Source of the DNA: Escherichia coli
Lineage (GTDB): Bacteria > Pseudomonadota > Gammaproteobacteria > Enterobacterales > Enterobacteriaceae
Assembly (NCBI RefSeq): GCF_009931435.1
Contig: NZ_CP043414.1
Strand: one strand, 5' to 3'
DNA length: 64,000 nt
Part shown: positions 15,283-53,793 of the stretch, one piece after another
Numbering within the stretch: position 1 is the stretch's first letter
Layout of the letters: each line of letters begins with the position of its first letter
The notes under the pieces: generated by a model
The model's input: the letters and a program-made list of their open reading frames with translations, nothing else
Told to the model about the DNA's origin: nothing
Database searches by the model: none
Position numbers and translations under genes: made by a program

Positions 15283-16764
15283 TTAGTGTTTCTTATGGCT
15301 CGGTGGACTCAGTTTTGGCGCGCTTCCTTGCCTCATGTGTTCTGGTGGCATTGAAGGTGTGAGATTTATGCTTCTATTAACTTCCGGCTGTTCCTGATTA
15401 GGACGGCTTGGTAAACGTTTGATTTCATCAGGTGTTAATTTATAGTCACCATTGTTAAATTTGGTACGTTTTTCAAACTCCGAGCGTGGAACATTGACAC
15501 CCAGCACTTCATCATAGACATAGTTCTCTGCGATACGCTTATCATGGTCAGCATCAATGGTATCGGGTTTCCTTCTGGCCCATACAAATCTCTCTTTGAA
15601 GAAGCCCACCACAAGCAGTGTGAAACGCTTAAACAAACCATTTTGTCGTGGCTTAGTCTGTTTCCTACTTCTCATCGGAGCACGGTTTATCGCTCTGGTG
15701 TTTCGAGAAGAAGGGGTTTCCAGTTTAGTGGATGCAGTTGGTTCAGGAACAATCAGAACGGGAGATTTCTTCCCTGAAATACTTACTTTACTGACCTTAT
15801 TAGGATTACGGTATGATTTTGCTGCTGGTCTTCTGCTTGTAGTTGCTGTTGCCACAATCGGCTGTTGTTCTACTGTTACCGGGTCGTCTGGAAGAACAAT
15901 CTCTTCGGGGTCAGGAAGAATTGTTATCTCAAAGCTTCTGACATCAACAACGATCTCCAGTGGTAGCTCACTGAATGTGGTGTAGACCTTCTTGGCCTCT
16001 TCAATTTGATGATCGCGTTGAGCTTGTTCAACAGATCGCTGTTCCTGAGACTCTTTGTCATTCCATTTAGCACGATGAACACGTTGCATTGCCGGGCGGT
16101 TAGTTTCCGTTGCTTTGGCAAGCCAGAACGCTTTTTCTTCAGCGCTGAATGCTTCTTCTGCCTGAGCAAGGGCATCAGCACATTGAGTTCTGAGAGAACG
16201 GTGATCGATACGTTCTTCACTGCCTGCAGTCTCAAGGTAGCTGTTTGACATCGTGGCCCATGACTCACGCCACTGAACAACCATCTTCTTATCATTCCAG
16301 CTTCTGTCTTTTTTACCGAAGCCTTCGGGACCGATAGTTTTCAGGGTTAACATGACGTGAGCATGGGGATTCTTACCATCTAAATCGTGGAATGCGATAT
16401 CAGCAATCATTCCTTTATCAGCAAAGTTCTTCTGGCAGTATTCGGCAACTAATTTTTTCTTGTCATCATTGCTGAGTTCTACGGGAATAGCGACATCAAA
16501 ATAACGGGCTGTTTGACCATTGTTCTGGCGTTCCACTCTTTCAACTTCATTCCAGAGTGCTGACGAGCTTTCAACAATATGAGCAGGTGCGGAAACAGGG
16601 GCTAATATAATATGACCATGAAGATCTGTTCTGTGGCTGAAATCAAATGTCTCGCCAATGCGATCATCTTTAATACGTGTACGGGCATGGTAGGCAGCTT
16701 TCGCAACAGAAGTCATGCCTTCGCTTCGTTTCACAATTTTAAAATCCAGATGAAAAATCGCCAT
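15283..16764 (-). CDS. mobA: MobA/MobL-family (MOBQ) conjugative relaxase
   Basis: N-terminus MAIFHLDFKIVKRS...AKAAYHAR with candidate catalytic Tyr; three-His motif HDLDGKNPHAHVML (H-x-D-x4-N-x-H-x-H). Confidence 0.85.
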   Translation of the reverse strand: MAIFHLDFKIVKRSEGMTSVAKAAYHARTRIKDDRIGETFDFSHRTDLHGHIILAPVSAPAHIVESSSALWNEVERVERQNNGQTARYFDVAIPVELSNDDKKKLVAEYCQKNFADKGMIADIAFHDLDGKNPHAHVMLTLKTIGPEGFGKKDRSWNDKKMVVQWRESWATMSNSYLETAGSEERIDHRSLRTQCADALAQAEEAFSAEEKAFWLAKATETNRPAMQRVHRAKWNDKESQEQRSVEQAQRDHQIEEAKKVYTTFSELPLEIVVDVRSFEITILPDPEEIVLPDDPVTVEQQPIVATATTSRRPAAKSYRNPNKVSKVSISGKKSPVLIVPEPTASTKLETPSSRNTRAINRAPMRSRKQTKPRQNGLFKRFTLLVVGFFKERFVWARRKPDTIDADHDKRIAENYVYDEVLGVNVPRSEFEKRTKFNNGDYKLTPDEIKRLPSRPNQEQPEVNRSINLTPSMPPEHMRQGSAPKLSPPSHKKH

Positions 16765-17409: not shown

Positions 17410-17715
17410 ATGGATAATGAAAGTAAAAGACCAAGAACAGAAAAAACATTAAAGCAAAAGGTTGCTTTTGCTCAGCTTGAACTTAATCGTCTTAAGTCTC
17501 TGGAAAAATCAGAGCGAAAGAAAGTTGAAACAAGACTCAAGATTATACTTGGTGCGGAAGTGGCTAAGGCTATGAATTGTAGTGTCGAACAGGTGGATAA
17601 AGAGCTTGTTATGGGGATTTTGCTTTCAGCATCTGACCTGAATGATATTGAAAAAATAACATATATAAAAGCAGGCAGTAAGTTTCTCGCGCAAATGGAG
17701 GGAAGACAAAAATAA
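17410..17715 (+). CDS. MobC-like relaxase accessory protein (putative)
   Basis: 101-aa charged coiled-coil protein transcribed divergently from the relaxase; assignment is by position and size only. Confidence 0.35.
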   Translation: MDNESKRPRTEKTLKQKVAFAQLELNRLKSLEKSERKKVETRLKIILGAEVAKAMNCSVEQVDKELVMGILLSASDLNDIEKITYIKAGSKFLAQMEGRQK

Positions 17716-18002: not shown

Positions 18003-18112
18003 TAATTCATCCGTCTGTCAGATAGAATTAAATATATCTTTCTATTTCTATTGCCAGATATGAGAGAAGCGTTATAACAGGAGTTATCATTAAAACAAAA
18101 AAGGAGATGATA

Positions 18113-18670
18113 ATGGTTTTATTAAATAACAAAAGAAAAGGCAAGAAAGGTTTCTCACTACTCGAGCTATTACTTGTTTTAGGCATCATTGCTGCATTAG
18201 TGGTAGCGGCTTTTATCGTTTATCCCAAGGTTCAGGCTTCACAAAGAGCACAGGCCGAATCCAATAACATTGCCACCATACAGGCAGGTGTTAAAGCGTT
18301 ATACACATCGGCTTCAAGTTTTACTGGCCTGACAAATACTGTGGCTGTTCAGGCAAAAATCTTCCCTGACAATATGTTAAGTGGGTCAGGAACGGCTGCT
18401 AAACCCATCAATGCCTTTAAAGGTAATGTGACGCTGGCTGCTACAGCTACAGGACCATCATCAGCGGCTGGCTCTTCTTTCACTATCACATACGATAATG
18501 TGCCAGCAGCGGAATGTGTGAAGATTGCGACAGCGGCAGCAGGTAATTTCTACATTACCACGGTTGGAACCAAGGTTGTTAAAGCCGCAAGAGGAACACT
18601 TGATGTGGCAGCTACGGCAGCGGCCTGTAATAACGCCACAAGTAATACATTAGTTTTCACGTCTATCTAA
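18113..18670 (+). CDS. pilS: Type IV prepilin, PilS-like major pilin (type IVb, IncI-thin-pilus-like)
   Basis: Long basic leader then G-FSLLELLLVLGIIA (prepilin peptidase motif with Glu+5); AAGGAG RBS 6 nt upstream of ATG 18113. Confidence 0.75.
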   Translation: MVLLNNKRKGKKGFSLLELLLVLGIIAALVVAAFIVYPKVQASQRAQAESNNIATIQAGVKALYTSASSFTGLTNTVAVQAKIFPDNMLSGSGTAAKPINAFKGNVTLAATATGPSSAAGSSFTITYDNVPAAECVKIATAAAGNFYITTVGTKVVKAARGTLDVAATAAACNNATSNTLVFTSI

Positions 18671-18722
18671 TGAAGAGGGCGCAGGCCCTTTTCTTTCTTA
18701 TTGCTAAAACAGGGAGATAATT

Positions 18723-20186
18723 ATGATAAAGAATAAAGGATTTACCTTACTGGAAGTCAGTATTGTGTTAGGCATTGGAACACTTATCGCTTTTATGAAG
18801 TTTCAGGATATGAGAAACAATCAGGAAGCGGTATTGGCTGATAATGTTGGAACACAGATTAAACAGCTTGGCGAAGCTGTTAACCGCTATATCAGTATTC
18901 GCTATGACAAGATTTCCACACTGTCATCATCCAACAATCAAAGTAGCGATCCGGGGCCAAGAACATGTTCGGCTGCTGGTTGTGAAATCACTTACCAGAC
19001 GTTAATTAATGAAGGTCTGTTGCCTGTCGGCTATACAGGAACTAACGCGCAAAAAGCATCTTACAAGATTGTGTTAAAGCGTTCAGGAACAGCGCCTGAT
19101 TACGTTATTAATGGTCTTATAACAACCGCTAGCCCGTGGGAAGAAGGTGGTCGTATTCGTTATGATCTATTAGGTAAAGCGGTTCAGGCGGCAGGTGTTG
19201 ATGGTGGTATGAGCAGAAACACCAAGATAGCTTCCGGCTATGGTGGTCAGTGGAGTGAGAACTCTAATAGCTACAGCAATATCACGGGTGGTGGATTGCT
19301 GGCTTACCGCGTGGGGTATAACTCTTCAATGTATTCTGTTTATCTGCGTCGTGATGGAACGTTGCCAATGACGGGTGATCTGAATCTTGGTGGGAAGAGC
19401 ATCAAAAACATCAAAGATATGACAGCATCAGGGACAACAACAACCGGAGCACTTAAGACAACGGGTAATGCGTCTGTTGCGTCAGATCTGAGTGTGGGTG
19501 GAACCTCGACCCTTAATGGTCCTGTAAATATCAACAACAACCTGAAAGTAAAATTTGATACCTATCTTAATACGCTATCAACAACAGGTCTGGCGAAGTT
19601 TGGTAGCCGTATTGCGACGAACGGACTTAATCCAAACGATCTGCCCGCTGGCTGGGCTGGCGGTGTTCGCACCTATGATTTGTATGCGTCGGGGACTGTT
19701 GGTGTTGGAACCGGTAAAACAGTTAAAGCTTACATGAACAATGCGGGTAATATTTATGCGTCAGGTAATCTTACCGCCGGGACGATAAAATCCAACGGAA
19801 CAATTGAATCAACAGGCAGAATCAAAGCAGGTGAATATCTCCACCTGAATGGTCAGGCAACGTTGAATGCGAAATGTACGCCTAATGGTTTGGTGGGACG
19901 AGACAGTACAGGTCGAGTGTTATCGTGTGTTAACGGTAAATGGCAGACAGCAAGTGGTGATGGCCTGAAAGGTATTTTTATAACGATAACAGATCAAATC
20001 TCTGGTTATAAATGCGTTATACCGAATAGTGATACTGGAACATGTGCCTGTCCGGGATCAACGTATAGTCCTCAGTTTGGTTATATATCTGGAACCCTTA
20101 TTGCAGAATATAATGAGGAGCGTTGTAGTGGTGGTAGGAATACACATTGTTATAGTAATTTCAGAAGGTTATATGCATGTCGGTAA
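18723..20186 (+). CDS. pilV: Type IV prepilin-like minor pilin/adhesin, PilV-like (487 aa)
   Basis: N-terminus MIKNKG-FTLLEVSIVLGIG (prepilin motif) followed by a large G/T/S-rich, Cys-containing domain. Confidence 0.7.
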   Translation: MIKNKGFTLLEVSIVLGIGTLIAFMKFQDMRNNQEAVLADNVGTQIKQLGEAVNRYISIRYDKISTLSSSNNQSSDPGPRTCSAAGCEITYQTLINEGLLPVGYTGTNAQKASYKIVLKRSGTAPDYVINGLITTASPWEEGGRIRYDLLGKAVQAAGVDGGMSRNTKIASGYGGQWSENSNSYSNITGGGLLAYRVGYNSSMYSVYLRRDGTLPMTGDLNLGGKSIKNIKDMTASGTTTTGALKTTGNASVASDLSVGGTSTLNGPVNINNNLKVKFDTYLNTLSTTGLAKFGSRIATNGLNPNDLPAGWAGGVRTYDLYASGTVGVGTGKTVKAYMNNAGNIYASGNLTAGTIKSNGTIESTGRIKAGEYLHLNGQATLNAKCTPNGLVGRDSTGRVLSCVNGKWQTASGDGLKGIFITITDQISGYKCVIPNSDTGTCACPGSTYSPQFGYISGTLIAEYNEERCSGGRNTHCYSNFRRLYACR

Positions 20187-20221
20187 TCTCGCTATGGATG
20201 ATTTCATAAATTACAGGTAAG

Positions 20222-20239
20222 AAGGGCCGATAGGCCCTT
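20222..20239. terminator. Hairpin between convergent pilV and Lamassu-like operon (aagggcc-gata-ggccctt)
   Basis: Perfect inverted repeat in the 60-bp convergent gap. Confidence 0.45.
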
Positions 20240-20246
20240 TCAGCTA

Positions 20247-21998
20247 TTATGAGGTTTGTAATAAAGAGAAGGCGTCATCCAATAGAATTTTCTCGCTATT
20301 GTTTATCTCTTTATTTAATAGAAATGATCTCACTGATTTTGCATTACCGATACAAATTTGTTTCGCTTTTCCTGCGAAATATTTCTTATTTATTTCATTG
20401 ATATCAAAAAGTGGATTGTCATTAATTTCGTTTTTTTTATATTCTGCTACGGTAAATAGCATTTGCTCATTATTACCAGATTCATTTCCTAAGAACTTAA
20501 AAATAAGATCTCTATTTCCAATATCTATATCTTCTTTGAATATAGCATCTAACAAAAATGGAAATTTATGGATTGTTTTTCTTTTATTGATTAATTTAAT
20601 AAAGGAAAAATGATAAGCCATGATTATTTTATGTAATTCAACCCCTTGGAAGGGGAAGGATGTAATGGAATAAAGATTTTGATACCTTGGATTATTAGGT
20701 ATTATTATCTTCAAAGCTTTTGCTTTTTCGCTGAAAATAGTTAAAAATTCCTTGTCAATGTTGTTTCGGAGAGAGTTAATTTGTGAATCTGTGAGTAGGT
20801 TGTCAATTTGGGTGTTAAGGTTTGATATTTTTTCGACATAATTAGCTTCTTTAATTTTAATATCATTTAAAATGGTGATATTTGCACGGTGATTAACCCA
20901 ATGGTCAAAGTCAATATTTTCGATTCTCGATTCTTTTAACACCTCATACTCAAGCTTTATTTTTTCACTATCGTGTTTGATCTTTCTTTCAACAGAATTT
21001 AATGATGACGAAACATTTTTAATTTCTTCAGTTATACGTTCTTTTTCTCGTAACGCATCGTTAATATCTTGAGTATAGATATATAATTGTCTAAGATCGC
21101 CGGGTAGCGTTTGTTCGCATACAGGACATGTGTCAACGCTGGGTTTTTGAAGTTTTAAATTTCGAATAGTTTGTAAAAGTACTTTTTGACGCCCACGTAA
21201 CATACTGAGTTTATTGCATAGTTTTTCATAATTAGCTTCTTCCGTAATCAGATTTTCTGCTAATATGTTGTATTTTTTTAAGTAATCAATTGCTTCCCCT
21301 TTGAATCGAGACTCTAATATCTCAGAGATTTTAAGAGAGCTATCTTTTGTTTTGTATTGAATTAATTGCTCTCTTTCATATTCAATTTGTTGTTTTTCTT
21401 TTTGCAACATATATTTTTGCAATCTGTCCGTACGATCTTTTATGCCTGCGTAGTAATCAAGGTAGTCATATTTGAAGTCTTTATAAAATCTATAATCACC
21501 TATTGATTCTCTTAGATAAACCCAACCAACAGATTGAGATATATAGAATGGCAAGAATGCAGCTTCTATCGGTGCATCAGTAAACTTAGTTTGGTTCTGT
21601 AATGTTAGATTAAAGTCAAATAAGTGGTTAAATAATTTTTTGTATCTTGCATATTCATATGAGTTATTTCCATTAATGCCATCAAACCGTAGGGGGACTC
21701 TATCATCAATGCGAACGACGAGAGTATCATCAAATCGAACAAATACAACCGTATGAGATGATTTTACTTTTATTATTTCACACTCAAGACGAAAGAGTAC
21801 TCTTTCTGTAAGAATGTCGTGCAAATTTTCTTTGGAATCATTAACACCCATTGTGTACAAAATTGATTGCATTAATGTACTTTTCCCTGATGTGTTCCTC
21901 CCGTGAATAATATTGACTGAGTCACCAAAATCAGTGCAAAAAAAACCTTTATTATTCATAGAGTATGCTAAAATGCTTTTCAGAATTAATTTAGACAT
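20247..21998 (-). CDS. SMC/Rad50-like ABC ATPase with coiled coil and CxxC hook (Lamassu LmuB-like)
   Basis: Walker A GRNTSGKST near N-terminus; long heptad-rich middle; CPVCEQ in mid-protein; start ATG 21998 with GAGGAA RBS overlaps upstream stop (ATGTCTAA). Confidence 0.65.
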   Translation of the reverse strand: MSKLILKSILAYSMNNKGFFCTDFGDSVNIIHGRNTSGKSTLMQSILYTMGVNDSKENLHDILTERVLFRLECEIIKVKSSHTVVFVRFDDTLVVRIDDRVPLRFDGINGNNSYEYARYKKLFNHLFDFNLTLQNQTKFTDAPIEAAFLPFYISQSVGWVYLRESIGDYRFYKDFKYDYLDYYAGIKDRTDRLQKYMLQKEKQQIEYEREQLIQYKTKDSSLKISEILESRFKGEAIDYLKKYNILAENLITEEANYEKLCNKLSMLRGRQKVLLQTIRNLKLQKPSVDTCPVCEQTLPGDLRQLYIYTQDINDALREKERITEEIKNVSSSLNSVERKIKHDSEKIKLEYEVLKESRIENIDFDHWVNHRANITILNDIKIKEANYVEKISNLNTQIDNLLTDSQINSLRNNIDKEFLTIFSEKAKALKIIIPNNPRYQNLYSITSFPFQGVELHKIIMAYHFSFIKLINKRKTIHKFPFLLDAIFKEDIDIGNRDLIFKFLGNESGNNEQMLFTVAEYKKNEINDNPLFDINEINKKYFAGKAKQICIGNAKSVRSFLLNKEINNSEKILLDDAFSLLQTS

Positions 21999-23079
21999 AC
22001 ATTCCTCTTGTCTCAACATATGCAGCTATTATCGCAAATGCAATCATGTGTTTTTCTAACCTTGAATTATATGTGTTAATATAAGTTTGATATAATTCAG
22101 TAATACAATCTGCTTCATCTGTATGTTTATAATCTATTTGTGTGTTTTCTGATACAAATTTATAAATCTTTTTGTATTCTACTTGTTGAAAATCTTTAAA
22201 AAAATCGAAACAGTTATCTAATAATTCTTGCGCTCTTCTTTTTATAGGGAGCTTAATTGATAATCCTTTCGCCAATTTATCTGCATGAGAACGCCAAAAG
22301 TTGAAAGCTTTTTTACTTTCTTGGAACATACTGAATGTTGCATCAATTTTTTGTTTGGTCAAACGCTTTGACCTATCTGTAAGTAAAGCATATCCAGCAT
22401 TATTATATGTTAACTCAACATCTTGCAATAAAGCCATTAGAGTTGTTATTACAGCGTCATGATCACTAACCTTACAACCTAGAACCTCAGTAGATAAACC
22501 TGTTAGCGTTCTTCTCCACCCTTTATAAGTTTGAGGAAGGTCAATGAAACTAAATTTTACATTAGAGAGTTGCTTAAAATCTGCAATTTCTCCATCTATT
22601 AGTTTTGATTGAATGTTTTCTTTGATTTCATCATGTAGATCAGAATAATTTTTAGAGATGTTTGTTACTTGTATTTTTTCTACTTTGCATTTTTTACCTT
22701 TTTCTTTCTTACCCTGAAGTATAATATTTCGATTTGTCAAGAAAGATAGAGTGTGTTTGTAATCATCAGATTTGGGGTGTTTATCGTTGATAAGTTCATT
22801 TCCAACAAGCGATATTTTTCCGATGATCTCACAAAATTTTTGATCCGTTTTCCAGTCATCTCTTGATTTTTTAGCTTGATAAGTATCAATGCGACTAATG
22901 TCACCATTTTCATCAACAAAGGCAAAAAGAAAATCTTCATGGTGTTCAACACATATAAAATAATCTAGCAATGGAGAGTTTAGTTTTTCGTAATCATCAA
23001 AAAGAAGGTATACAACACAACAACGTTGGAATGTATATCCTGAGCCTCCCTCAACTCCTGAGTTGACGCTTTCTGACAT
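21991..23079 (-). CDS. Mrr-like PD-(D/E)xK nuclease-domain protein (Lamassu LmuA-like effector, putative)
   Basis: N-terminal GYTFQ ... VEHHEDFLFAFVDENGD ... IDTYQAKK fits the Mrr-type G-x-x-FE / D / (Q/E)-x-K pattern; translationally coupled to the downstream ATPase. Confidence 0.5.
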   Translation of the reverse strand: MSESVNSGVEGGSGYTFQRCCVVYLLFDDYEKLNSPLLDYFICVEHHEDFLFAFVDENGDISRIDTYQAKKSRDDWKTDQKFCEIIGKISLVGNELINDKHPKSDDYKHTLSFLTNRNIILQGKKEKGKKCKVEKIQVTNISKNYSDLHDEIKENIQSKLIDGEIADFKQLSNVKFSFIDLPQTYKGWRRTLTGLSTEVLGCKVSDHDAVITTLMALLQDVELTYNNAGYALLTDRSKRLTKQKIDATFSMFQESKKAFNFWRSHADKLAKGLSIKLPIKRRAQELLDNCFDFFKDFQQVEYKKIYKFVSENTQIDYKHTDEADCITELYQTYINTYNSRLEKHMIAFAIIAAYVETRGMYV

Positions 23080-23348
23080 TTTTTGTTGCCCCTGTTAATC
23101 AAATCATAGCGTAAATCTATTAATACATATTTAACATTGGCTTTATGTATGAAATACGCATTCTCCTTAGCTAAAGGATATTATAAAGTGGACTAAAAAT
23201 CATCTAACACCTTGCAAAATGTGAAGTTTTTCTTCATGTAAAACTCATAAATAACGTTACTATTCTGTTAGTAACGAAATAATCGGGAAACTTGCTATTT
23301 ACGGTTTACAGGAATCTTAATCAAAGTTGTGTAAAAGTTTAATCTTAC

Positions 23349-23606
23349 TTATTGAGCAAATTCAAACTGCCTGACCATCCCATCCCGGTTAGCATCAAGA
23401 AAATCTGCCCACCACTGTAGCATTAACCTTCGCTGCTCAAGATGCTTGGCCTTATGGGTATAGGCAGCACGAACACTGTTGCTTTCCTTGTGGATCATCT
23501 GGAGTTCCACCGCATCTTCAGACCATAGCCCTGATTTAATCAGAGCACTACATGCCAGTGTGCGGAAACCATGACCAGAGATGTCCTGTGTGGTGTCATA
23601 GCCCAT
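23349..23606 (-). pseudogene. C-terminal remnant of a second P4-type tyrosine integrase
   Basis: 85-aa ORF aligns with the last ~80 residues of the adjacent intact integrase (…RxxYxHK…LxxRRxMLQWW…) but is divergent from it and lacks everything upstream. Confidence 0.6.
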
Positions 23607-23624
23607 TTATGCATTCTCTTGTTA

Positions 23625-24854
23625 TCAAGCAGCCATAGCCCTATACTTTTGCGCCTTAACGTAATCTCCCCACCATTGCATAAGCACTTCTCGCTCCCCT
23701 AAATATTCAGCTCGATTGTAGGCTGCTATGATTTCAGTGCTTTTGGTATGGGCCAATGCTGCTTCAAGAACTTCTGTTCTGAATTTGCCACTCTCTTCGG
23801 CGGCTGTTCTGGCAATAGAACGCATACCATGAGCTACCAGTTCACCACCCAACCCCATACGAATCAATGCGGCGTTGGCTGTCTGCTCATGCATGTGGGC
23901 CAATGGTGTTTTTATGCTGGGAAATACCCATTCACGATGACCGCTGATAGGCTGCATGTTTTCCAGAATGCGAAGTGCCTCTTTGCTTAATGGCACTTTA
24001 TGAGGCCGTTTCATCTTCATAAACTCTGGTGGGATGTTCCAGATTTTATTCTCTGTATCGATGTCAGCCCAACGAGCACGAACAGCCTCACCGGGGCGAA
24101 CCCATGTCAGCAGTTGCCATTCAATCAGCATACGGGTTTCCAGACGGATGGATGCGTTTGCCAGTGCAATCATAAACCGGGGGATTTCGCTTGGTGGTAA
24201 TGCTGGCATATTTTGTTTTTTGGGCTTACTGAAACGTTGACCAAGGTTGTCGGCTGGGTTGAACTCAATGAGTTCTTCTGTGGCAGCATAGCGAAAAATT
24301 TCATTCAGGCGGGAAATGATGCGACGTAGAGTTTCAAGCACACCCCGTTGTTCAATTGGGTCGAGATGCTGCTTGAGCATTTTGGGGCGGATCTCTTTGA
24401 TAGGGACATCACCCAGAGTGGGAAAGATGTTCCGTTCAAGGCTACGCCAGATGTCTTCTGCATGATCTTGGGATATACCGGAAGTCTTAATCTTTTCATC
24501 CAACCACTTTCTTGCAACAGCCTGTAGCGTGTTTTCAGTCGCATCTTTTAGTGCATTGGCTTTTTCGTTGTTATGGACTTGAGGATCGATACCGTTGGCA
24601 AGTAGGGAGAGATACTCATCCCGCAAAGTTCGTGCCTTAGCCAAGGTAAGGTGAGGGTAGGTTCCAAGACTCATTTTTGTGCGTTTTTTGGTCACTGGCA
24701 CTGAATACCTGAAATACCAGTTTTTCTTCCCTCCTTTTGTGTCTGGCGCTATGCGTAGCAGTAATCCATCTCCATCAAAGAGGTTGATTTCCTTATCGCC
24801 GGGTTTGGTATTTTTGATTTCAGTATCAGTAAGTTTTTTTGCGAGCTTTGCCAT
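23625..24854 (-). CDS. intA: P4-type tyrosine integrase (IntA-like) adjacent to ssrA
   Basis: 409 aa; C-terminal catalytic region ...VAHGMRSIARTA...ALAHT...AAYNRAEY; sits directly downstream of the tmRNA 3' end as in CP4-57. Confidence 0.9.
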   Translation of the reverse strand: MAKLAKKLTDTEIKNTKPGDKEINLFDGDGLLLRIAPDTKGGKKNWYFRYSVPVTKKRTKMSLGTYPHLTLAKARTLRDEYLSLLANGIDPQVHNNEKANALKDATENTLQAVARKWLDEKIKTSGISQDHAEDIWRSLERNIFPTLGDVPIKEIRPKMLKQHLDPIEQRGVLETLRRIISRLNEIFRYAATEELIEFNPADNLGQRFSKPKKQNMPALPPSEIPRFMIALANASIRLETRMLIEWQLLTWVRPGEAVRARWADIDTENKIWNIPPEFMKMKRPHKVPLSKEALRILENMQPISGHREWVFPSIKTPLAHMHEQTANAALIRMGLGGELVAHGMRSIARTAAEESGKFRTEVLEAALAHTKSTEIIAAYNRAEYLGEREVLMQWWGDYVKAQKYRAMAA

Positions 24855-25018
24855 TTGGGACCCTCAAGTTTTGGACCCTTTCCGTTGGGTCCCAAAAAGG
24901 GTGCCATAAGTTGTGGTTCTCAGCAATTCTCCCTGAACTATAGTGAACGTAAAAAAGCCCGCAGAGCTTGTGCTGTGCGGGCTTAGTGAACTTCACTGAA
25001 CGTTAGTGTATCAATATT

Positions 25019-25381
25019 TGGTGGAGCTGGCGGGAGTTGAACCCGCGTCCGAAATTCCTACATCCTCGGTACTACATGCTTAGTCAGTCTTTACATTCGC
25101 TTGCCAGCTGCGGACGGACACGCCACTAACAAACTAGCCTGATTAAGTTTTAACGCTTCAACCCCAGGCAGGGCTTCCACGCGATCTCTTTTGGGTTTGA
25201 CCTCTCTTGATCCCCGTCCTAAGAGCGGAGGCTAGGGAGAGAGGGCTCTAAGCAGGTTATTAAGCTGCTAAAGCGTAGTTTTCGTCGTTTGCGACTATTT
25301 TTTGCGGCTTTTTACGAGGCCAACCGCCCCTCGGCATGCACCTTGGGTTTCGCAAATCCCGTCGAATCCAGAATCAGCCCC
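25019..25381 (-). ncRNA. ssrA: tmRNA (SsrA), 363 nt
   Basis: Reverse complement reads GGGGCUGAUUCUGGAUUCGACGGG ... GCAAACGACGAAAACUACGCUUUAGCAGCUUAA (tag reading frame) ... GGUUCAACUCCCGCCAGCUCCACCA. Confidence 0.97.
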
Positions 25382-43433: not shown

Positions 43434-44456
43434 TTATGTGGATGAAATGTGGATGCCTCCTTTTAACGGATTAAGTGAAATTGCATCCTGGAGGAAATCA
43501 GGAGCGAGGTGCGCATAGGTCATAGTTTGCTGGATCGTGGCGTGCCCCATAATTCGCTGGAGCGTAAGTATATTTCCTCCATTAATCATAAAGTGAGCAG
43601 CAAAGGTATGGCGTAGAACATGTACAGCCTGTCCTTTTGGTAGGTCTGGCTTAACACTGCGAAGCACCTTGCGATATTCCTCATAATTGACGTCAAACAA
43701 AAGGCCGGATTTCTTTGTTTTGATCTCACTAACAACTTCATCAGAGACAGGAATAATTCGAACTTTTCCGTTTTTAGTTTTGTTAAACGTCACGCGATTA
43801 TTGATGATGTGTTCCGCGCGCAGATTTTTCGCTTCTCCCCATCTCGCCCCAGTACTGAGACAAAGTAGCGTAATCCGCCGGGCATCACCGCTTACTGCAT
43901 CCAGTAATTTGGCGATTTCTTCCATGGTGAGATACGTCATTTCGGGTGATTTTCGTTTCAAAGAGGGGAGGGCGCGGAGCGGATTTTCTCCGTGAAATTC
44001 CCCGGCATTTGCCAGGAGTGTAAACATTCCTCCGAGATCCGACTCATCACGCCGAACAGTAGACTCTTTTACTCCCAAAGATAAACGGGAGCTTCGATAA
44101 GCGGCCATGAAACGAGCATTAATCTGGCTAACCCTTGGATCATTCATTTCTTTGATGATTTTTTTCAACCTGGTTAGAACGCCGTTAGCATATGGCTTAT
44201 TGCGTCCACCCAATTCCCACCATAACGGAAGCAGATCTGAGAGATGACGTTGCTCTGTTGGCTTTTCAAGCCATTCCTTATCGTGCATGTGGCTGAGAAC
44301 ATAACGCTCAAAGGCCACTGCATCTGCCTTTTTCTTAAAAATCCGCTGAATCCGACGTCCACTTCGGCCACGCGGTCTAACATCCACTTTATACCGTCCA
44401 CCATCGAGCGCTTTAATTGCCATTGGCAAGCCCTCCGGTGAAACGAGGAAAGACAT
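43434..44456 (-). CDS. int: Phage tyrosine integrase (P2-type)
   Basis: 340 aa; catalytic region ...HVLRHTFAAHFMINGGNILTLQRIMGHATIQQTMTYAHL (R-H-x-x-R...Y). Confidence 0.9.
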   Translation of the reverse strand: MSFLVSPEGLPMAIKALDGGRYKVDVRPRGRSGRRIQRIFKKKADAVAFERYVLSHMHDKEWLEKPTEQRHLSDLLPLWWELGGRNKPYANGVLTRLKKIIKEMNDPRVSQINARFMAAYRSSRLSLGVKESTVRRDESDLGGMFTLLANAGEFHGENPLRALPSLKRKSPEMTYLTMEEIAKLLDAVSGDARRITLLCLSTGARWGEAKNLRAEHIINNRVTFNKTKNGKVRIIPVSDEVVSEIKTKKSGLLFDVNYEEYRKVLRSVKPDLPKGQAVHVLRHTFAAHFMINGGNILTLQRIMGHATIQQTMTYAHLAPDFLQDAISLNPLKGGIHISST

Positions 44457-48623: not shown

Positions 48624-48741
48624 AGTATGCCGTTCTCACAAAAAAACCGCTTGCCATGCCGCAATCAGTCAGGTTACATTTCCGCTGCACCTCATAAAAC
48701 GGGTGCCGGGTTTCGCAGCCTGCTGACAACCAAAGCGCACA

Positions 48742-48761
48742 ACCGCGCCAGCGGTTTTTTT
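48742..48761 (+). terminator. Rho-independent terminator (accgc-gcca-gcggt + T7) in a non-coding gap
   Basis: Stem, tetraloop and U-tract; flanked by cgcaca/tgtgcg outer complement. Confidence 0.55.
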
Positions 48762-48802
48762 GTGCGTACTGTATTGCCACGTCTTTTTCGCACACGAATT
48801 AT

Positions 48803-48878
48803 GGCGGGGCGTACGGGGCCGACTTCGGTCGGGCCGGGTTCTTTGGTTGCCGGTACTGCGAACCCCGTACGTCTCGCC
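48803..48878 (+). ncRNA. Candidate structured RNA: 16-bp stem (14 Watson-Crick + 2 G-U on the plus-strand transcript) enclosing a UUCG-tetraloop hairpin
   Basis: ggcggggcgtacgggg pairs with ccccgtacgtctcgcc; inner ccgac-TTCG-gtcgg; the two G-U pairs would be C-A mismatches on the opposite strand. Confidence 0.35.
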
Positions 48879-48940
48879 ACCCACAGTTTCGCAGCTCTGG
48901 ATGGTGAGTTTTCAAAACTTACAACCAAAGAGGCTACACC

Positions 48941-49615: not shown

Positions 49616-52438
49616 ATGACGGCAGAGTACATCAGGGACTGGCAACAACCGCGCCACGCAGTGGGGCGTGAAGGAACGGGGATCCCCGCTCCTGAATCCG
49701 CGCTTTCCTCCTGGCTGGATGCCTACCGGGTAGAGAACGAGCGCCGCCAGGAAATGGCTGATGCGGCGTTCTCCGCCACGCCGCTGGGCAACCTGATTAA
49801 TAAAAGCCTGGACGCACAGGAAAAACAGGACAAAACCATCACACTGGCAGGAGACGCCAGAAAACAGGCACGCGGCGCAGTGGATGAAGCCATGACCTCG
49901 CTGCGCCTGCTGCCGTCCTATCTGCGCGATCCGCTTATTCGCCACCTCTCCTTCCTGCGCAAAAAACAGGAAGCCGATCGCCGGAAAGGCAAAAAGAGCT
50001 GGCAGGCGGAACGCTATGCACGCGGAACCCTGCGCAAAATATTCGAACGTCTGGACCGCACCGATCACCGCTGGCTGACACCGGGTTATCGCTCCCTTGC
50101 CGGACGCGAACGCCTGGACGATTTGCTTTACCTGCCGCAGCTCAACAAACACCAGATACAGACGCTGGCCACCATGACGGCGGCGATGTTCAGCAGCACC
50201 TTCGAAAAACTCTGCGATGGCTTTGGCGCGACTGATGGCGAACTGACCATGGATGTAACGCTGAAGGCGTATCAGATGCTGGCCCGCATGGCGTTACACC
50301 TGCACGCCATGCCTCCACATTATGACGCACTGACAACAGACAAAGACCGGAGGAACGAACCGGACACAGAGCTGCTGCCGGGCGCAATCCTTCGCCTGAC
50401 CTGTGCGGAATGGTGGAAACGCAAACTGTGGCTGTTACGTTGCGAGTGGCGGGAAGAACAACTCCGCGCCGCCTGTCTGGTTTCCAGAAAAACATCGCCC
50501 TATCTGAGCCAGGACGCGTTAAGCGAGTTTCGCGCACAGCGCGAGAAAACACGCGATTTCCTGAAAAGTTTCATGCTGGAAAACGAAGACGGGTTCACGA
50601 TTGATCTCGAGACAGTGTATTACGCGGGAGTAAGTAACCCGGTTCACCGTAAGGCAGAAATGATGGCCACCATGAAGGGACTGGAACTTCTGGCCGAAGC
50701 CCGTGGCGACAGAGCGGTGTTTCTGACTGTCACCTGCCCGTCAAAATACCACGCAACAACGGAGAACGGTCATCCGAACCCCAAATGGAACGGGGCCACC
50801 ATGCGCGACTCCAGCGATTACCTGGTTAACACGTTTTTTGCGGCGGTCCGCAAAAAACTGAACCGCGACGGCCTGCGCTGGTATGGCATCCGCACGGTGG
50901 AGCCTCACCATGACGGCACCGTGCACTGGCATATGATGGTCTTTGCTCATCCGGAAGAAATCGACAGCATCGTGGCCATCACCCGCGATATTGCCATTCA
51001 GGAAGACCGCCACGAGCTGGGCAATGATATTACTCCGCGCTTTAAAGTGGAGTATGTCGACGGCTCAAAAGGCACACCAACCAGCTATATCGCGACCTAC
51101 ATCGGGAAAAACCTGGACAGCCGCGCCGTGGATGGCATCGACCCGAAAACGGGCAAACCACGCGTTGACCACGAAACCGGAAAGTCAATGGCCGAGAGCG
51201 TGGAACGCGCCATCGGCTGGGCGCGCCTTCACCGTGTCCGCCAGTTCCAGTTCTTTGGTATCCCCTCCCGTCAGGTGTGGCGTGAACTGCGTCGCCTTGC
51301 CAGCCAGATGGCACGCAACCCGGAAGGCCCGCAACAGCTGAAGGATGACGCAATGGATGCGGTACTCGCTGCCGCTGATGCCGGATGTTTTGCCACCTAC
51401 ATAGAGAAACAGGGCGGCGTTCTTGTTCCACGCAAAGACTACCTGATTCGCACCGCCTACGACCTCGCAGATGAGCTGAACGATTACGGCGAACAGAGCG
51501 TACAGATTTACGGGATCTGGTCGCCACTCATCGGGGAATCCTCCCGTGTGTGCACGCATCCGGATAACTGGAAGCTGGTAAGACGTAAACCGGAAACGGA
51601 AGACAGCGCCCGCGAAAATGGTTTTGACCTTCAGGGCGGCCCTGCCGCCCCTTGGACTCGTGGCAATAACTGTCCCCGTGTACAGGAAACGGACAACAAC
51701 GGGACAGAACAGCCGGAAGAACGGCCAGCACCGTGGCCGCAGCTTCCTGACAGCGTTGACGTGAATGAATGGATGCGCTCACTGAAACGGCACGAACGCC
51801 GGGCGCTGATGCGTTCGCTGCGTGACAAACAGGCAAAAAACAGCAGTGATGAAATGCAGAACTGGACACAGAGCCGCAAACAGCCACGGCCTTTGCCTGA
51901 TAACCACGAGTTACTCGCTAAAGAATGGCGGGAGTCTGCTGAATCTCTCGGCCTGCATATTGGTGAACAGCAGATGCAGCACCTGTTACGGGGCGGCAGT
52001 CTGTACGTTGACGGCAGCATCATTGCACCGCAGGGATTTGAAATTGTACGCAAACCGGATACCCGCCCGGACAGCCGAATCACGCAGCTCTGGCAGCGCC
52101 TGAGCCGTAATCACGGCGTAAGCAGCACGGGGATCCGCCATAACCCGGTCGCCAGCTATCTGGAACAGCTGGGGGCATCAGACCCCGAAGCCGCCGCACG
52201 CCTGGCATCCACACTTCAGCAGGACCAGAACACCATGAAAACCCCCGTTACCGTGCTTTCTGACATGCTGCGCGCCATCCGTGACGCAGAGCACGCACAG
52301 AGAATCAGTGAAACAACTGAACGCGCCCGCCGCAAAGCAGACCTGCTGCGGGGTGGCCTGACCAGTGGAAACAAAAAACAGACAAAAACAGGATTCACAA
52401 ATCCCGTAAATGAGCAAAAAACGCGCCGTGATATATGA
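49616..52438 (+). CDS. Phage replication initiation protein (P2 gpA-family rolling-circle endonuclease), 940 aa
   Basis: HUH-type motif region VEPHHDGTVHWHMMVF; position after the early operon. Confidence 0.8.
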   Translation: MTAEYIRDWQQPRHAVGREGTGIPAPESALSSWLDAYRVENERRQEMADAAFSATPLGNLINKSLDAQEKQDKTITLAGDARKQARGAVDEAMTSLRLLPSYLRDPLIRHLSFLRKKQEADRRKGKKSWQAERYARGTLRKIFERLDRTDHRWLTPGYRSLAGRERLDDLLYLPQLNKHQIQTLATMTAAMFSSTFEKLCDGFGATDGELTMDVTLKAYQMLARMALHLHAMPPHYDALTTDKDRRNEPDTELLPGAILRLTCAEWWKRKLWLLRCEWREEQLRAACLVSRKTSPYLSQDALSEFRAQREKTRDFLKSFMLENEDGFTIDLETVYYAGVSNPVHRKAEMMATMKGLELLAEARGDRAVFLTVTCPSKYHATTENGHPNPKWNGATMRDSSDYLVNTFFAAVRKKLNRDGLRWYGIRTVEPHHDGTVHWHMMVFAHPEEIDSIVAITRDIAIQEDRHELGNDITPRFKVEYVDGSKGTPTSYIATYIGKNLDSRAVDGIDPKTGKPRVDHETGKSMAESVERAIGWARLHRVRQFQFFGIPSRQVWRELRRLASQMARNPEGPQQLKDDAMDAVLAAADAGCFATYIEKQGGVLVPRKDYLIRTAYDLADELNDYGEQSVQIYGIWSPLIGESSRVCTHPDNWKLVRRKPETEDSARENGFDLQGGPAAPWTRGNNCPRVQETDNNGTEQPEERPAPWPQLPDSVDVNEWMRSLKRHERRALMRSLRDKQAKNSSDEMQNWTQSRKQPRPLPDNHELLAKEWRESAESLGLHIGEQQMQHLLRGGSLYVDGSIIAPQGFEIVRKPDTRPDSRITQLWQRLSRNHGVSSTGIRHNPVASYLEQLGASDPEAAARLASTLQQDQNTMKTPVTVLSDMLRAIRDAEHAQRISETTERARRKADLLRGGLTSGNKKQTKTGFTNPVNEQKTRRDI

Positions 52439-52514: not shown

Positions 52515-53474
52515 ATGAAAATTTGTATCGACGACGGATCCACCAACATCAAGCTGGCATGGACTGAGAACGGCGAACGCCGCAACGCCATCAGCCCGAA
52601 CAGCTTCAAGTCAGAATGGTCTGCGCCGTTCGGTGGCACGCAGCCCGCGAACTACATGCTTGATGGCGTGCGCTATGGTTTTGATCCGGTCAGCGATCGC
52701 TTTGTCCAGACGACCGACACGCAATACCAGTACAGCGATGTGAATGTCATTGCCATTCATCATGCGCTGGTCAAATCAGGCATCACGCCACAGGAGGTGG
52801 ATGTGGTTGTCACCCTGCCACTGAGCGAGTATTTCGACACAAACGCACAGCCGGACATGGCCAACATCAACCGCAAAAAAGCGAACGTTATGCGCCCGGT
52901 GGAGTACCAGAACGGCGAGGCATTCACTATCCGTAACGTGCGGGTTATGCCTGAATCCATTCCGGCTGGCTTTAAAGCACTGGCTGACATGAGTCCGTTT
53001 GAATCCCTGCTGATTGTGGATTTGGGCGGAACCACGCTGGATGTGGCAAAGGTTCAGGGGCAACTGGCAGGTATCAGCCAGGTGTTTTGCGATCCACACG
53101 TAGGCGTTTCCCTGATGGCCGATGCCGTACTGTCGGTAATGGCCACTAACGGTATGCGCACCAGTCACCACATCGCCAATACCATTATCGAACATCGCCA
53201 CGATGAAGCCTGGCTGCGCCAGCACATCCACAATAACGCACATTACGCCAGCCTGATGGCTGTTATTCGTGAAAAGGAAGAAACACTGAAACAACGCGTG
53301 ATCCGCGCGCTGGCGGGTTTTTCGGGTTACGGGCGGGTGATGGTTGTAGGTGGAGGGGCAGAGATTGTGGCACCCGCTATCCGCGAAGCCTGCGGAGTTA
53401 ATGCGACTTTCATCGCGGACGGGGTGCCACAGTTTGCTCTGGTTAATGGGCTGTACGCAATGGACAAGGAGTAA
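52515..53474 (+). CDS. parM: ParM/StbA actin-like segregation ATPase
   Basis: Colinear similarity to plasmid R1 ParM: IDDGSTNIKL, ISPNSFK, YSDVNVIAIHHAL, RKKAN, VMPESIPAG, LLIVDLGGTTLD, GGGAE, LVNGLY. Confidence 0.85.
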   Translation: MKICIDDGSTNIKLAWTENGERRNAISPNSFKSEWSAPFGGTQPANYMLDGVRYGFDPVSDRFVQTTDTQYQYSDVNVIAIHHALVKSGITPQEVDVVVTLPLSEYFDTNAQPDMANINRKKANVMRPVEYQNGEAFTIRNVRVMPESIPAGFKALADMSPFESLLIVDLGGTTLDVAKVQGQLAGISQVFCDPHVGVSLMADAVLSVMATNGMRTSHHIANTIIEHRHDEAWLRQHIHNNAHYASLMAVIREKEETLKQRVIRALAGFSGYGRVMVVGGGAEIVAPAIREACGVNATFIADGVPQFALVNGLYAMDKE

Positions 53475-53478
53475 ATCA

Positions 53479-53793
53479 ATGACGACACCAACCAGACGGA
53501 TAAGTTTCTATCTGAAGCCCGCCGTCGTCAAGAGCGAACGGGAGGCGTGCAGTTACCTCGACAGCCTGCCAGCCTCCGAACGCAGCCGCGCACAACGCGC
53601 GGCTTTTCTGGCCGGACTGGCTCTTATAAAACGCACCCCCGCGTTGGCGTATTCGCTGGCAGAATGGTCAGAAGACGAAATACGGATGCCACCGCTACCA
53701 GTACAGCCTGAAAAACCGGCGCAACCAGCAGCAGACAGCGCCCCCCATATGCAGCAGGTGAAAAAGAATATTCAGGCGTTTTTCCCGAAGTGA
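53479..53793 (+). CDS. parR: ParR/StbB-like centromere-binding protein
   Basis: N-terminus RRISFYLKPAV...SYLDSLPASERSRAQRAAFLAGLALIKRTP resembles R1 ParR; immediately follows parM. Confidence 0.7.
   Translation: MTTPTRRISFYLKPAVVKSEREACSYLDSLPASERSRAQRAAFLAGLALIKRTPALAYSLAEWSEDEIRMPPLPVQPEKPAQPAADSAPHMQQVKKNIQAFFPK

What the first reader, a model, noticed from the sequence alone, without database searches (positions are those of the whole stretch)
20247..23079. Lamassu-like two-gene operon: Mrr-like nuclease plus SMC-like ATPase with CxxC hook
The upstream 362-aa protein carries a G-x-x-FQ / D / Q-x-K pattern (GYTFQ, FVDENGD, YQAK) consistent with an Mrr/Cap4-type nuclease. It is translationally coupled (ATGTCTAA overlap) to a 583-aa protein with an N-terminal Walker A (GRNTSGKST), a long coiled coil and a central CPVC motif like the Rad50/SMC zinc hook. 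This matches the LmuA+LmuB architecture of type I Lamassu without LmuC. The subtype is uncertain and the pair could be a divergent variant.
Basis: partly seen in the sequence, partly recalled or inferred. Interest (0 to 1): 0.6.

Follow-up and report, generated by a model that had tools for sequence, protein, structure and literature searches.

The report
Two-gene (type I) Lamassu defence system

Summary
On the minus strand, a 362-aa ORF (21991..23079) overlaps a 583-aa ORF (20247..21998) by 8 nt (ATGTCTAA).

- **Lamassu assignment:** PADLOC models match both proteins end to end, LmuA at E=2e-137 and LmuB at E=3e-224.
- **Conserved residues:** Walker A, the CPVC hook and Q68-x-K70 are invariant across homologues.
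- **No LmuC:** none is present here, and homologous loci in Vibrio, Electrothrix and Elizabethkingia show the same bare pair.

- The nuclease is Cap4/DUF4297-type, not Mrr.
- The conserved acidic residues are E45 and D49, not FVDENGD.
- Pfam DUF4297 and DUF3732 do not hit these proteins directly, so this is a divergent, mostly gammaproteobacterial subfamily.

The pair has 31% GC. It fills a variable cargo slot between pilV and an integrase on a MobQ mobilizable island at ssrA. It occurs in 1 of 5426 complete E. coli genomes, where it is annotated "hypothetical". The system is known and ordinary. Function here is inferred, not tested.

The parts
21991..23079 (-). lmuA: 362-aa effector with an N-terminal Cap4/DUF4297-type PD-(D/E)xK nuclease domain (~aa 11-180) and a helical C-terminal domain (~aa 185-358)
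20247..21998 (-). lmuB: 583-aa short SMC/Rad50-like ABC ATPase with a split head, an antiparallel coiled coil and an apical CxxC hook
   Evidence: PADLOC LmuB PDLC00250 E=2.8e-224, covering aa 2-582. Pfam SMC_N 7.9e-6 at aa 22-70. Family profile against PDB: 9ux7_A LmuB E=6.3e-11, full length. AF2 model pLDDT 82.8. Foldseek ranks 9ux7_A at 6e-17, then type II LmuB chains, then SMC and Rad50.
21991..21998 (-). 8-nt overlap ATGTCTAA between the lmuA stop and the lmuB start (translational coupling)
   Evidence: Read directly from the sequence. The same 8-nt overlap occurs in Vibrio lentus and Electrothrix loci.
22870..22881 (-). LmuA Y67-Q68-A69-K70: the (E/Q)xK part of the nuclease active site. 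K70 corresponds to the catalytic Lys mutated in the studied LmuA proteins (reported as K57, or K59 in places, for BcLmuA; K57 for VcLmuA)
   Evidence: Invariant in 20 homologues. Aligns with YQIK of a Bacillus-type LmuA. The catalytic-Lys mutants are described in 10.1101/2025.06.23.660979 and PMC12663957.
22924..22947 (-). LmuA E45-H-H-E-D49-F-L-F52: the conserved acidic residues of the PD-(D/E)xK site
   Evidence: E45 and D49 are at least 90% conserved and F52 is invariant. In the model the segment lies at the junction of strands 39-46 and 49-55. It aligns with DYHDDVLI of a Bacillus-type LmuA.
23026..23040 (-). LmuA G14-Y-T-F17-Q18 motif on the first helix
   Evidence: G14, F17 and Q18 are at least 90% conserved. 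The motif lies on helix 11-28 of the model.
21876..21902 (-). LmuB Walker A / P-loop, G33-RNTSG-K39-S-T41
   Evidence: G33, N35, T36, S37, G38, K39, S40 and T41 are invariant. The SMC_N, Rad50, RecF and AriA N-terminal matches all cover this stretch.
21117..21128 (-). LmuB C291-P-V-C294 hook at the coiled-coil apex (putative zinc hook for LmuB dimerisation)
   Evidence: C291 and C294 are invariant and P292 is at least 90% conserved. The motif aligns to CQYC 285-288 of BcLmuB, described as a Zn hook. In the model it lies between helices 236-282 and 302-356.
20544..20564 (-). LmuB deviant Walker B, F-P-F-L-L-D484-A485, followed by K488-E-D-I-D492
   Evidence: P480, F481, D484, A485, K488, E489 and D490 are invariant. 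The stretch aligns to PFCMDSFIKNEI of BcLmuB. A naturally deviant Walker B is reported for LmuB.
20637..20660 (-). LmuB S447-F-P-x-Q-G-V-E: likely counterpart of the ABC signature motif
   Evidence: F448, P449, G452 and V453 are invariant. The stretch aligns with the ISGSG region of BcLmuB. Assigning it as the signature motif is an inference.
20222..20239 (.). GC-rich hairpin AAGGGCC-GATA-GGCCCTT between the convergent pilV and lmuB stop codons; a likely bidirectional terminator
   Evidence: Read directly from the sequence. Not tested, and the terminator scan did not list it.
23349..23606 (-). Context: C-terminal remnant of a tyrosine recombinase, marking the integrase-side edge of the cargo slot that holds lmuAB
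   Evidence: ORF. The equivalent fragments in KFu019 are annotated 'integrase, missing N-terminus'.
23625..24854 (-). Context: intact P4-type integrase next to ssrA (tmRNA at 25019..25381)
   Evidence: NCBIfam PRK09692 E=3.5e-135. tmRNA found by ARAGORN and Rfam.

Best explanation
This is a type I (two-gene, LmuC-less) short Lamassu defence system with a Cap4-type nuclease effector. It is carried as cargo on an integrative mobilizable island at the E. coli ssrA locus.

The mechanism below is inferred from the homologous Bacillus cellulasensis LmuAB and the Vibrio and Salmonella LmuACB systems. None of it was tested here.
1. Two LmuB protomers pair along their coiled coils and at the CPVC hook.
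2. One LmuA monomer is held by its helical C-terminal domain near the hook. Its nuclease domain is therefore monomeric and inactive.
3. The LmuB head, helped in type I systems by the LmuA N-terminal domain, binds free dsDNA ends that arise during phage or plasmid replication. ATP binding and hydrolysis at Walker A (K39) gate this step.
4. LmuA is released and tetramerises through its C-terminal domain.
5. Two Cap4 domains pair into one active site (E45/D49/Q68/K70) and cut DNA indiscriminately. The infected cell dies or arrests before the invader spreads.

Shown here: the ORFs, their translational coupling, membership by profile and by fold, conservation of the catalytic and hook residues, absence of LmuC, and the mobile-island context.

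Inferred: stoichiometry, trigger, ATP dependence, tetramer activation and the defence phenotype.
For: - **PADLOC:** LmuA and LmuB match full length at E=2e-137 and 3e-224. Other ATPase defence families (PtuA, mad, NsnB) score no better than E=2e-4.
- **LmuB sequence and fold:** the LmuB family profile hits solved type I LmuB 9ux7_A at E=6e-11 across residues 8-524, with the CxxC motifs aligned. The LmuB model's best Foldseek hit is 9ux7_A at 6e-17. Type II LmuB chains follow (9hqx, 9hqu, 9uxh, 9nyg), then SMC and Rad50.
- **Conserved residues:** catalytic and hook residues are invariant across about 20 homologues per protein, down to 32-40% identity.
- **Conserved architecture:** the two-gene arrangement with overlapping stop and start is kept in Vibrio, Electrothrix and Elizabethkingia. 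It is also found in the nearest sister LmuA subfamily, a PDLC00238 locus with an AimR-domain gene nearby (which suggests Bacillus, though the organism was not identified), and no third gene is conserved.
- **No LmuC here:** there is no ORF for one in the 270-bp upstream gap. None of the 10 largest ORFs in the island left of the relaxase gave any PADLOC hit, LmuC models included.
- **Mobile, foreign context:** GC is 30.7% (GC3 0.22-0.26) against 49.9% for the core genome. The pair lies between pilV and an integrase remnant on a MobQ/RepL island. Related islands carry other cargo, including a SIR2+TIR pair.
- **Mechanistic template:**
Against: - No experiment exists on this subfamily, and function is entirely by homology at 12-18% structural-alignment identity to the solved type I proteins.
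- Pfam DUF4297 and DUF3732, NCBIfam and single-sequence PDB searches are all negative for the query proteins. The LmuA family profile finds no PDB chain by sequence.
- Walker B is D-A, outside the D[Q/S/T/E] consensus reported for short Lamassu, so ATPase behaviour could differ.
- LmuA is about 58 aa longer than the resolved BcLmuA chain (362 against 304), so the interfaces may differ.
- Comparison with the one near-identical E. coli copy gives pN/pS of only 0.25 (lmuA) and 0.48 (lmuB) from very few substitutions. That is weak evidence of constraint at this short range.
- No promoter could be assigned.
Confidence: 0.9

Rival explanations
1. The same Lamassu machinery acts mainly in competition between mobile elements (plasmid exclusion or elimination, or island stabilisation) rather than as anti-phage immunity. 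This is the role first described for V. cholerae DdmABC.
For: The pair sits on a mobilizable island that encodes only a MobQ relaxase, a TraD-like protein, PilS and PilV. Such an island presumably depends on a helper conjugative plasmid. DdmABC was discovered as a plasmid-restriction module.
Against: Type I Lamassu from Bacillus was validated against phage. Anti-plasmid and anti-phage activities coexist in the studied systems, so this changes the emphasis rather than offering a different mechanism. Nothing in the sequence discriminates between the two roles.
Confidence: 0.2
2. It is a type II (three-gene) Lamassu whose LmuC is cryptic, either encoded elsewhere, fused into LmuA, or missed as a small ORF.
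For: Most Lamassu systems have an LmuC. LmuA here is about 58 aa longer than the BcLmuA chain.
Against: lmuA and lmuB overlap by 8 nt, so no gene lies between them, which is where LmuC is normally found. There is no suitable ORF of 25 aa or more in the upstream gap. None of the 10 largest ORFs in the island left of the relaxase hits any PADLOC model. Four taxonomically distant loci show only the pair. Both proteins are structurally closest to the LmuC-less BcLmuAB, not to LmuACB chains.
Confidence: 0.03
3. It is a different nuclease-plus-ATPase module: a CBASS Cap4 effector, Hachiman, Septu, PARIS or Gabija, or a housekeeping SbcCD/Rad50-Mre11, RecN or RecF repair pair.
Against: Those matches cover only the shared nuclease core or the first ~50 residues. 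LmuA has a helical C-terminal domain in place of a SAVED domain and no helicase lies next to the pair; no CD-NTase turned up among the island ORFs scanned or listed. PADLOC scores for PtuA and the other families are negligible beside 744 bits for LmuB. The partner is not an Mre11-type phosphoesterase. The genes are AT-rich, island-borne, and present in 1 of 5426 complete E. coli genomes, which does not fit a housekeeping role.
Confidence: 0.02
4. The genes are intact in sequence but silent or decaying cargo, with no current function in this strain.
For: The neighbouring integrase is a remnant. No convincing promoter was found. pN/pS against the KFu019 copy is 0.25-0.48 on few changes. AT-rich DNA in E. 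coli is often silenced by H-NS (general knowledge), and related islands carry H-NS-like genes.
Against: Both reading frames are full length and every conserved motif is intact. The stop/start coupling is preserved. A 98.8% identical intact copy exists at a different chromosomal site in another strain.
Confidence: 0.07

Closest known systems
Type I Lamassu BcLmuAB from Bacillus cellulasensis (PDB 9ux7/9ux8; Li M et al., bioRxiv 10.1101/2025.06.23.660979); the two-gene LmuA+LmuB architecture was first reported in 2018, as cited in that paper
   Same: A two-gene operon with no LmuC. LmuA combines an N-terminal Cap4/DUF4297 nuclease with a helical C-terminal domain. LmuB is about 560-580 aa with a Walker A, a deviant Walker B and a single central CxxC hook. 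It is the best structural match for both proteins and the only PDB Lamassu chain reached by sequence profile.
   Different: Only 12% (LmuA) and 18% (LmuB) identity in the structural alignments. The query proteins miss Pfam DUF4297 and DUF3732. LmuA is about 58 aa longer. Walker B is D-A rather than D-S. The hook is CPVC rather than CQYC. The hosts are mostly Gammaproteobacteria rather than Firmicutes. The subfamily here is PADLOC PDLC00244/PDLC00250, whereas the nearest related LmuA subfamily is PDLC00238.
Type II Lamassu: V. cholerae DdmABC (LmuACB) and Salmonella enterica LmuACB (PDB 9hqu/9hqx, 9nyg, 9uxh)
   Different: Type II systems have a middle gene, LmuC, which contacts DNA and the LmuA C-terminal domain; none is present here. 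VcLmuB has no zinc hook, whereas this LmuB has an invariant one. The structural match is more distant than to type I.
CBASS effector Cap4 (PDB 6vm5/6vm6/6wan/7yib), Pfam PF14130
   Different: There is no SAVED/CARF sensor domain next to the nuclease, and no CD-NTase was found among the island ORFs examined. Activation is expected through release from LmuB, not through a cyclic-oligonucleotide signal.
Rad50/SbcC-Mre11/SbcD DNA-repair complex
   Same: An ABC-type split head, an antiparallel coiled coil and an apical CxxC hook. Lamassu is proposed to derive from SbcCD. Rad50 heads appear among the sequence and fold hits.
   Different: The coiled coil is much shorter (583 aa in total). The partner is a Cap4 nuclease, not an Mre11 phosphoesterase. 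The genes are island-borne, AT-rich and rare within the species.

Membership tests
Lamassu (LmuA + LmuB core) | An SMC/Rad50-like LmuB ATPase homologous to known LmuB | tested here: met
   PADLOC LmuB PDLC00250 at 744 bits, full length, plus 14 other LmuB models. Family profile hit to PDB 'Lamassu protein LmuB' 9ux7_A at E=6e-11. Lamassu LmuB chains take six of the seven top Foldseek ranks.
Lamassu (LmuA + LmuB core) | An adjacent LmuA with an N-terminal effector domain and a C-terminal LmuB-binding/oligomerisation domain | tested here: met
Lamassu (LmuA + LmuB core) | Intact Walker A and effector catalytic residues | tested here: met
   G33...G38-K39-S40-T41 and Q68-x-K70 are invariant; E45 and D49 are at least 90% conserved.
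Lamassu (LmuA + LmuB core) | Confers defence against phage and/or plasmids | not testable with these tools
   This needs plaque and plasmid-stability assays. No paper on this subfamily turned up in two literature searches.
Type I Lamassu (two-gene; 'clade S' of Haudiquet et al.) | No LmuC gene in the operon | tested here: met
   lmuA and lmuB overlap by 8 nt. There is no candidate ORF upstream. None of the 10 largest ORFs in the island left of the relaxase hits any PADLOC model, LmuC included. The pair stands alone in four other genera.
Type I Lamassu (two-gene; 'clade S' of Haudiquet et al.) | LmuB falls phylogenetically inside the LmuC-less clade | tested here: inconclusive
   BcLmuB is the closest solved LmuB by both sequence profile and fold, and the nearest LmuA subfamily is also two-gene. 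No tree was built against the published data set, and its supplement was not available.
   The query proteins give no hit to either family at E<=10. DUF4297/Cap4_nuclease is reached only through 5 of 20 family members. This is a limit of sequence-profile sensitivity and does not contradict the fold evidence.
Cap4/DUF4297 PD-(D/E)xK nuclease | Cap4 nuclease fold with a D...(E/Q)xK active site | tested here: met
   No Mrr family appears in the Pfam scans of the query or of the 20 family members. Lamassu nomenclature treats Cap4 and Mrr effectors as separate classes.
Rad50-type zinc-hook SMC-like protein | A conserved CxxC at the apex of an antiparallel coiled coil | tested here: met
   C291 and C294 are invariant. 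They lie between helices 236-282 and 302-356 in the model and align with the CQYC hook of BcLmuB. Zinc binding was not tested.
Type II Lamassu / DdmABC | LmuC encoded between LmuA and LmuB | tested here: not met
   The 8-nt overlap leaves no room for a middle gene.
CBASS (Cap4 effector) | A SAVED/CARF sensor domain and a neighbouring CD-NTase | tested here: not met
   The LmuA C-terminal half is all-helical. Its best match is the LmuA C-terminal domain rather than a SAVED domain. No cyclase turned up among the island ORFs listed or scanned.

The most novel reading that the evidence does not exclude
This mostly gammaproteobacterial PDLC00244/PDLC00250 lineage could be a mechanistically distinct LmuC-less Lamassu. 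It has a longer LmuA (about 58 extra residues compared with BcLmuA) and an invariant D-A Walker B. The extra LmuA elements might take over the DNA-contacting and bridging role of LmuC. The altered ATPase might change the trigger threshold. Because the system rides on an island that probably depends on a helper plasmid, it might be tuned to spare that plasmid while attacking rival plasmids and phages.
Probability: 0.1. Interest if true: 0.45.

Novelty: already known. Interest (0 to 1): 0.2.

Why it matters
The practical value is mainly in annotation. RefSeq labels both proteins 'hypothetical', and Pfam and NCBIfam miss them. The result documents that a whole subfamily escapes domain-based annotation but is caught by PADLOC and by fold comparison. 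The LmuA subfamily has about 130 representative clusters at 50% identity.

The locus also gives a clean example of a variable defence-cargo slot (pilV | integrase) on a widespread family of E. coli mobilizable islands. Other members of that family carry a SIR2+TIR pair or a VOC-family gene instead. If cloned, it would provide an enterobacterial type I Lamassu for comparison with the Bacillus prototype in a native-like E. coli host. It does not open a new question about mechanism.

Tried and rejected
- **Direct domain searches:** Pfam scans of both proteins gave no DUF4297 or DUF3732 hit, only SMC_N at the P-loop. NCBIfam gave nothing useful.
- **Sequence searches of the PDB:** single-sequence phmmer found nothing for either protein. 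The LmuA family profile found only noise. A Bacillus-type LmuA relative, P0294, also found nothing.
- **Promoters and terminators:** the number of promoter-like sites was below the shuffle expectation, so the scan was uninformative.
- **Island boundary:** a search for an ssrA 3'-end repeat found no second copy in the window, so the distal att site is either short or outside the window.
- **LmuC elsewhere on the island:** 10 ORFs gave no PADLOC hit at all.
- **Published Lamassu table:** the supplement to the PNAS paper is not held, so the locus could not be looked up there.
- **Short-range selection:** pN/pS against the only close E. coli copy rests on too few substitutions to be decisive.
- **Prophage cargo:** ORFs at likely cargo positions in the P2-like prophage gave no PADLOC hits.
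- **Alternative identities rejected:** CBASS Cap4, Hachiman, Septu, PARIS, Gabija and SbcCD/RecN/RecF, for the reasons given under the rival explanations.
Full report
**What is in the sequence**

The finding's coordinates exactly enclose two minus-strand ORFs. The first is a 362-aa ORF at 21991..23079.

The second, downstream ORF is listed mechanically as 590 aa from an ATG at 22019. It in fact starts at the ATG at 21998, giving 583 aa. All aligned homologues begin at MSKL..., and RefSeq annotates 583 aa in the one near-identical E. coli copy.

The stop codon of the first ORF and the start codon of the second share the octamer ATGTCTAA, with an AGAGGAA Shine-Dalgarno-like sequence just upstream.

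- In the 362-aa protein: GYTFQ (aa 14-18), FVDENGD (54-60) and YQAK (67-70).
- In the 583-aa protein: GRNTSGKST (33-41) and CPVC (291-294). CPVC lies exactly at mid-length.

**What the two proteins are**

PADLOC-DB profiles match both proteins end to end. LmuA model PDLC00244 scores E=2.1e-137 over residues 2-361. LmuB model PDLC00250 scores E=2.8e-224 over residues 2-582, and fourteen further LmuB models also hit. ATPases of other defence systems (PtuA, mad3/8, NsnB) score at noise level.

General-purpose libraries miss the pair. Pfam gives only SMC_N at the LmuB P-loop (7.9e-6), with no DUF4297 or DUF3732. NCBIfam gives nothing useful. Single-sequence searches of the PDB give nothing.

I therefore built family alignments from database homologues.
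- **LmuB.** The family profile reaches the solved type I 'Lamassu protein LmuB' (9ux7_A, Bacillus cellulasensis) at E=6.3e-11. The alignment covers residues 8-524 and places the family's CxxC on the CQYC hook of that structure. Rad50, RecF and AriA match only the first ~50 residues.
- **LmuA.** The family profile finds no PDB chain by sequence. However, 5 of the 20 members hit Pfam Cap4_nuclease PF14130, with a best E of 9e-9.

**Structure predictions**

The LmuA model has pLDDT 87.8. It shows an N-terminal alpha/beta nuclease domain and an all-helical C-terminal half.
- Foldseek agrees, with 9ux7_C first at 1e-5 and Cap4 structures next.

The LmuB model has pLDDT 82.8. It is a split ABC head joined by an antiparallel coiled coil (helices 191-282 and 302-428), with CPVC in a small hairpin at the apex.
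- Foldseek ranks 9ux7_A first at 6.3e-17.
- Then come a B. subtilis YydD model and the type II LmuB chains from Salmonella and Vibrio (1e-8 to 1e-12).
- SMC, Smc5/6, Rad50, JetC, MukB and AriA follow.

Both proteins are thus closest to the LmuC-less type I system.

**Conserved residues**

In LmuA, Y67-Q68-A69-K70 and F52 are invariant. G14, F17, Q18, E45 and D49 are at least 90% conserved. A pairwise alignment with a Bacillus-type LmuA lines up GYTFQ with RFSFQ, EHHEDFLF with DYHDDVLI, and YQAK with YQIK.

The active site is therefore E45/D49...Q68-x-K70. K70 corresponds to the catalytic lysine mutated in BcLmuA and VcLmuA.

In LmuB the following are invariant down to 40% identity:
- Walker A, G33...G38-K39-S40-T41;
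- the YISQSVGWVY segment, a likely Q-loop region that is also conserved in BcLmuB;
- C291 and C294;
- F448-P449...G452-V453;
- the Walker-B-like F481-L-L-D484-A485, followed by K488-E-D.

The Walker B is deviant, as reported for LmuB in general. Its D-A form lies outside the D[Q/S/T/E] consensus quoted for short Lamassu.

**No LmuC**

Several observations argue against a third gene.
- The two genes overlap, so no middle gene is possible.
- The 270-bp gap upstream of lmuA holds no plausible ORF.
- None of the 10 largest ORFs in the island left of the relaxase hits any PADLOC model.
- The same bare pair occurs in Vibrio lentus, Candidatus Electrothrix and Elizabethkingia, with an 8- or 4-nt overlap and unrelated neighbours. 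In Electrothrix, lmuB is split.

An exhaustive profile search of 1.84 billion representative proteins finds only 130 clusters at E<=0.001, so this is a compact subfamily. The weak tail of hits belongs to PADLOC LmuA subfamily PDLC00238.

One PDLC00238 locus is also a two-gene LmuA + 559-aa LmuB pair with an AimR-domain gene nearby. That suggests a Bacillus or Bacillus-phage origin, but the organism was not identified. Its LmuB aligns with ours at 23% identity over 564 columns, and the CxxC motifs align.

This fits a single LmuC-less lineage, the 'clade S' of Haudiquet et al.. I did not build the tree that would prove it.

**Genomic context**

The window is E. coli chromosome; the smpB-to-recN stretch is 99.4% identical to many strains.

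The lmuAB pair has 30.7% GC (GC3 0.22-0.26) against 49.9% for the adjacent core genome. Read from the ssrA end of the island, the order is:
- tmRNA, 25019..25381;
- an intact P4-type integrase, 23625..24854;
- an integrase C-terminal remnant, 23349..23606;
- lmuA and lmuB;
- a GC-rich hairpin;
- convergent pilV and pilS, a TraD-like gene, a MobQ relaxase and RepL.

Only 1 of 5426 complete E. coli genomes carries the pair (KFu019, 98.8% identical). There it sits on the same island backbone but next to tRNA-Asn, and both genes are annotated 'hypothetical protein'.

A further 328 genomes share only the last 88 bases of pilV. Homology stops at the pilV stop codon, so this is a variable cargo slot. 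Related islands carry a VOC-family gene in that slot and a SIR2+TIR pair in an inner slot.

**How it most likely works**

This section is inferred from the literature and was not tested here. In the type I BcLmuAB structures, two LmuB protomers associate along their coiled coils and Zn hooks. One LmuA is anchored by its C-terminal domain at the distal coiled coil, so it stays monomeric and inactive.

The complex binds dsDNA ends with an LmuB head and the LmuA N-terminal domain. With DNA plus ATP/Mg, LmuA tetramers appear. Walker A and catalytic-Lys mutants lose activity.

The type II structures from Vibrio and Salmonella support the same scheme of sequestration, release, tetramerisation and nuclease activation, with an abortive-infection outcome. 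I expect the E. coli pair to follow this scheme, using K39, C291/C294, D49 and K70.

**Verdict**

- The effector is Cap4-type, not Mrr.
- The catalytic Asp was misassigned.
- The suggested Pfam checks are negative on these sequences.
- The 'uncertain subtype' is a discrete subfamily that PADLOC already models.

The system type is already known and structurally characterised, so interest is low. The residual novelty is that this mostly gammaproteobacterial subfamily has not been tested experimentally and is not annotated in RefSeq.

Noticed in passing
window 5400-25400: A low-GC (~37%) integrative mobilizable island sits at ssrA. It carries RepL (7754..8311, 95% identical to an annotated RepL), a MobQ relaxase (15283..16764), a TraD-like gene (17410..17715), PilS pilin (18107..18670) and the PilV tip adhesin (18723..20186), but no full transfer or pilus apparatus. 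The same backbone occurs in hundreds of E. coli genomes at other sites (the flanks show tRNA-Ser in one strain and tRNA-Asn in another) with different cargo. This suggests an element that borrows an IncI-type helper plasmid.
   Followed up: partly
window 10022-11005 and 11172-12089 (+): Two AT-rich ORFs of 327 and 305 aa have no hit in Pfam, PADLOC, NCBIfam or PHROGs. They occupy roughly the inner island slot where related islands carry a SIR2+TIR pair or a DUF4238 protein, so they are candidate uncharacterised cargo, possibly another defence pair.
   Followed up: partly
window 8722-8760 and 8861-8899: Two 39-nt imperfect direct repeats (85% identical, 139 bp apart) each contain an internal palindrome (GTGATTGT...ACAATCAC). 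They lie in the non-coding gap upstream of the RepL gene and look like iterons or operator sites.
   Followed up: no
window 735-5396 (+): A 1553-aa AIDA-I/Ag43-family autotransporter adhesin with a C-terminal beta-barrel and internal strand-loop-strand repeats. It scores below the equivalog cut-offs, so it is a divergent family member.
   Followed up: partly
window 23349-23606 (-): An 85-aa C-terminal remnant of a tyrosine recombinase lies directly between the intact ssrA-side integrase and lmuA. The same remnant accompanies lmuAB in strain KFu019 next to a different intact integrase at tRNA-Asn. This implies that the cargo end moved between islands by recombination.
   Followed up: partly
window 43434-64000: A P2-like prophage is inserted next to the pheA leader. 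It includes an integrase (43434..44456), a 940-aa replication endonuclease (49616..52438), ParA/ParB-like partition genes (52515..53793), and portal and terminase genes. C4 antisense RNA (48797..48884) and isrK (48687..48761) were found by Rfam. The ORFs scanned gave no PADLOC hits.
   Followed up: partly
L005 6076-7826 (Candidatus Electrothrix communis): In this homologous locus lmuB is split into 353-aa and 208-aa ORFs, apparently by a frameshift or stop. This looks like a decaying copy of the same two-gene system.
   Followed up: no
PDB 9a6c_A (fold-search hit): The second-best structural match for LmuB is an integrative model of B. subtilis YydD-YydB, ranking above the type II LmuB chains. 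This hints that the yyd locus of B. subtilis encodes a related LmuB-like pair.
   Followed up: no
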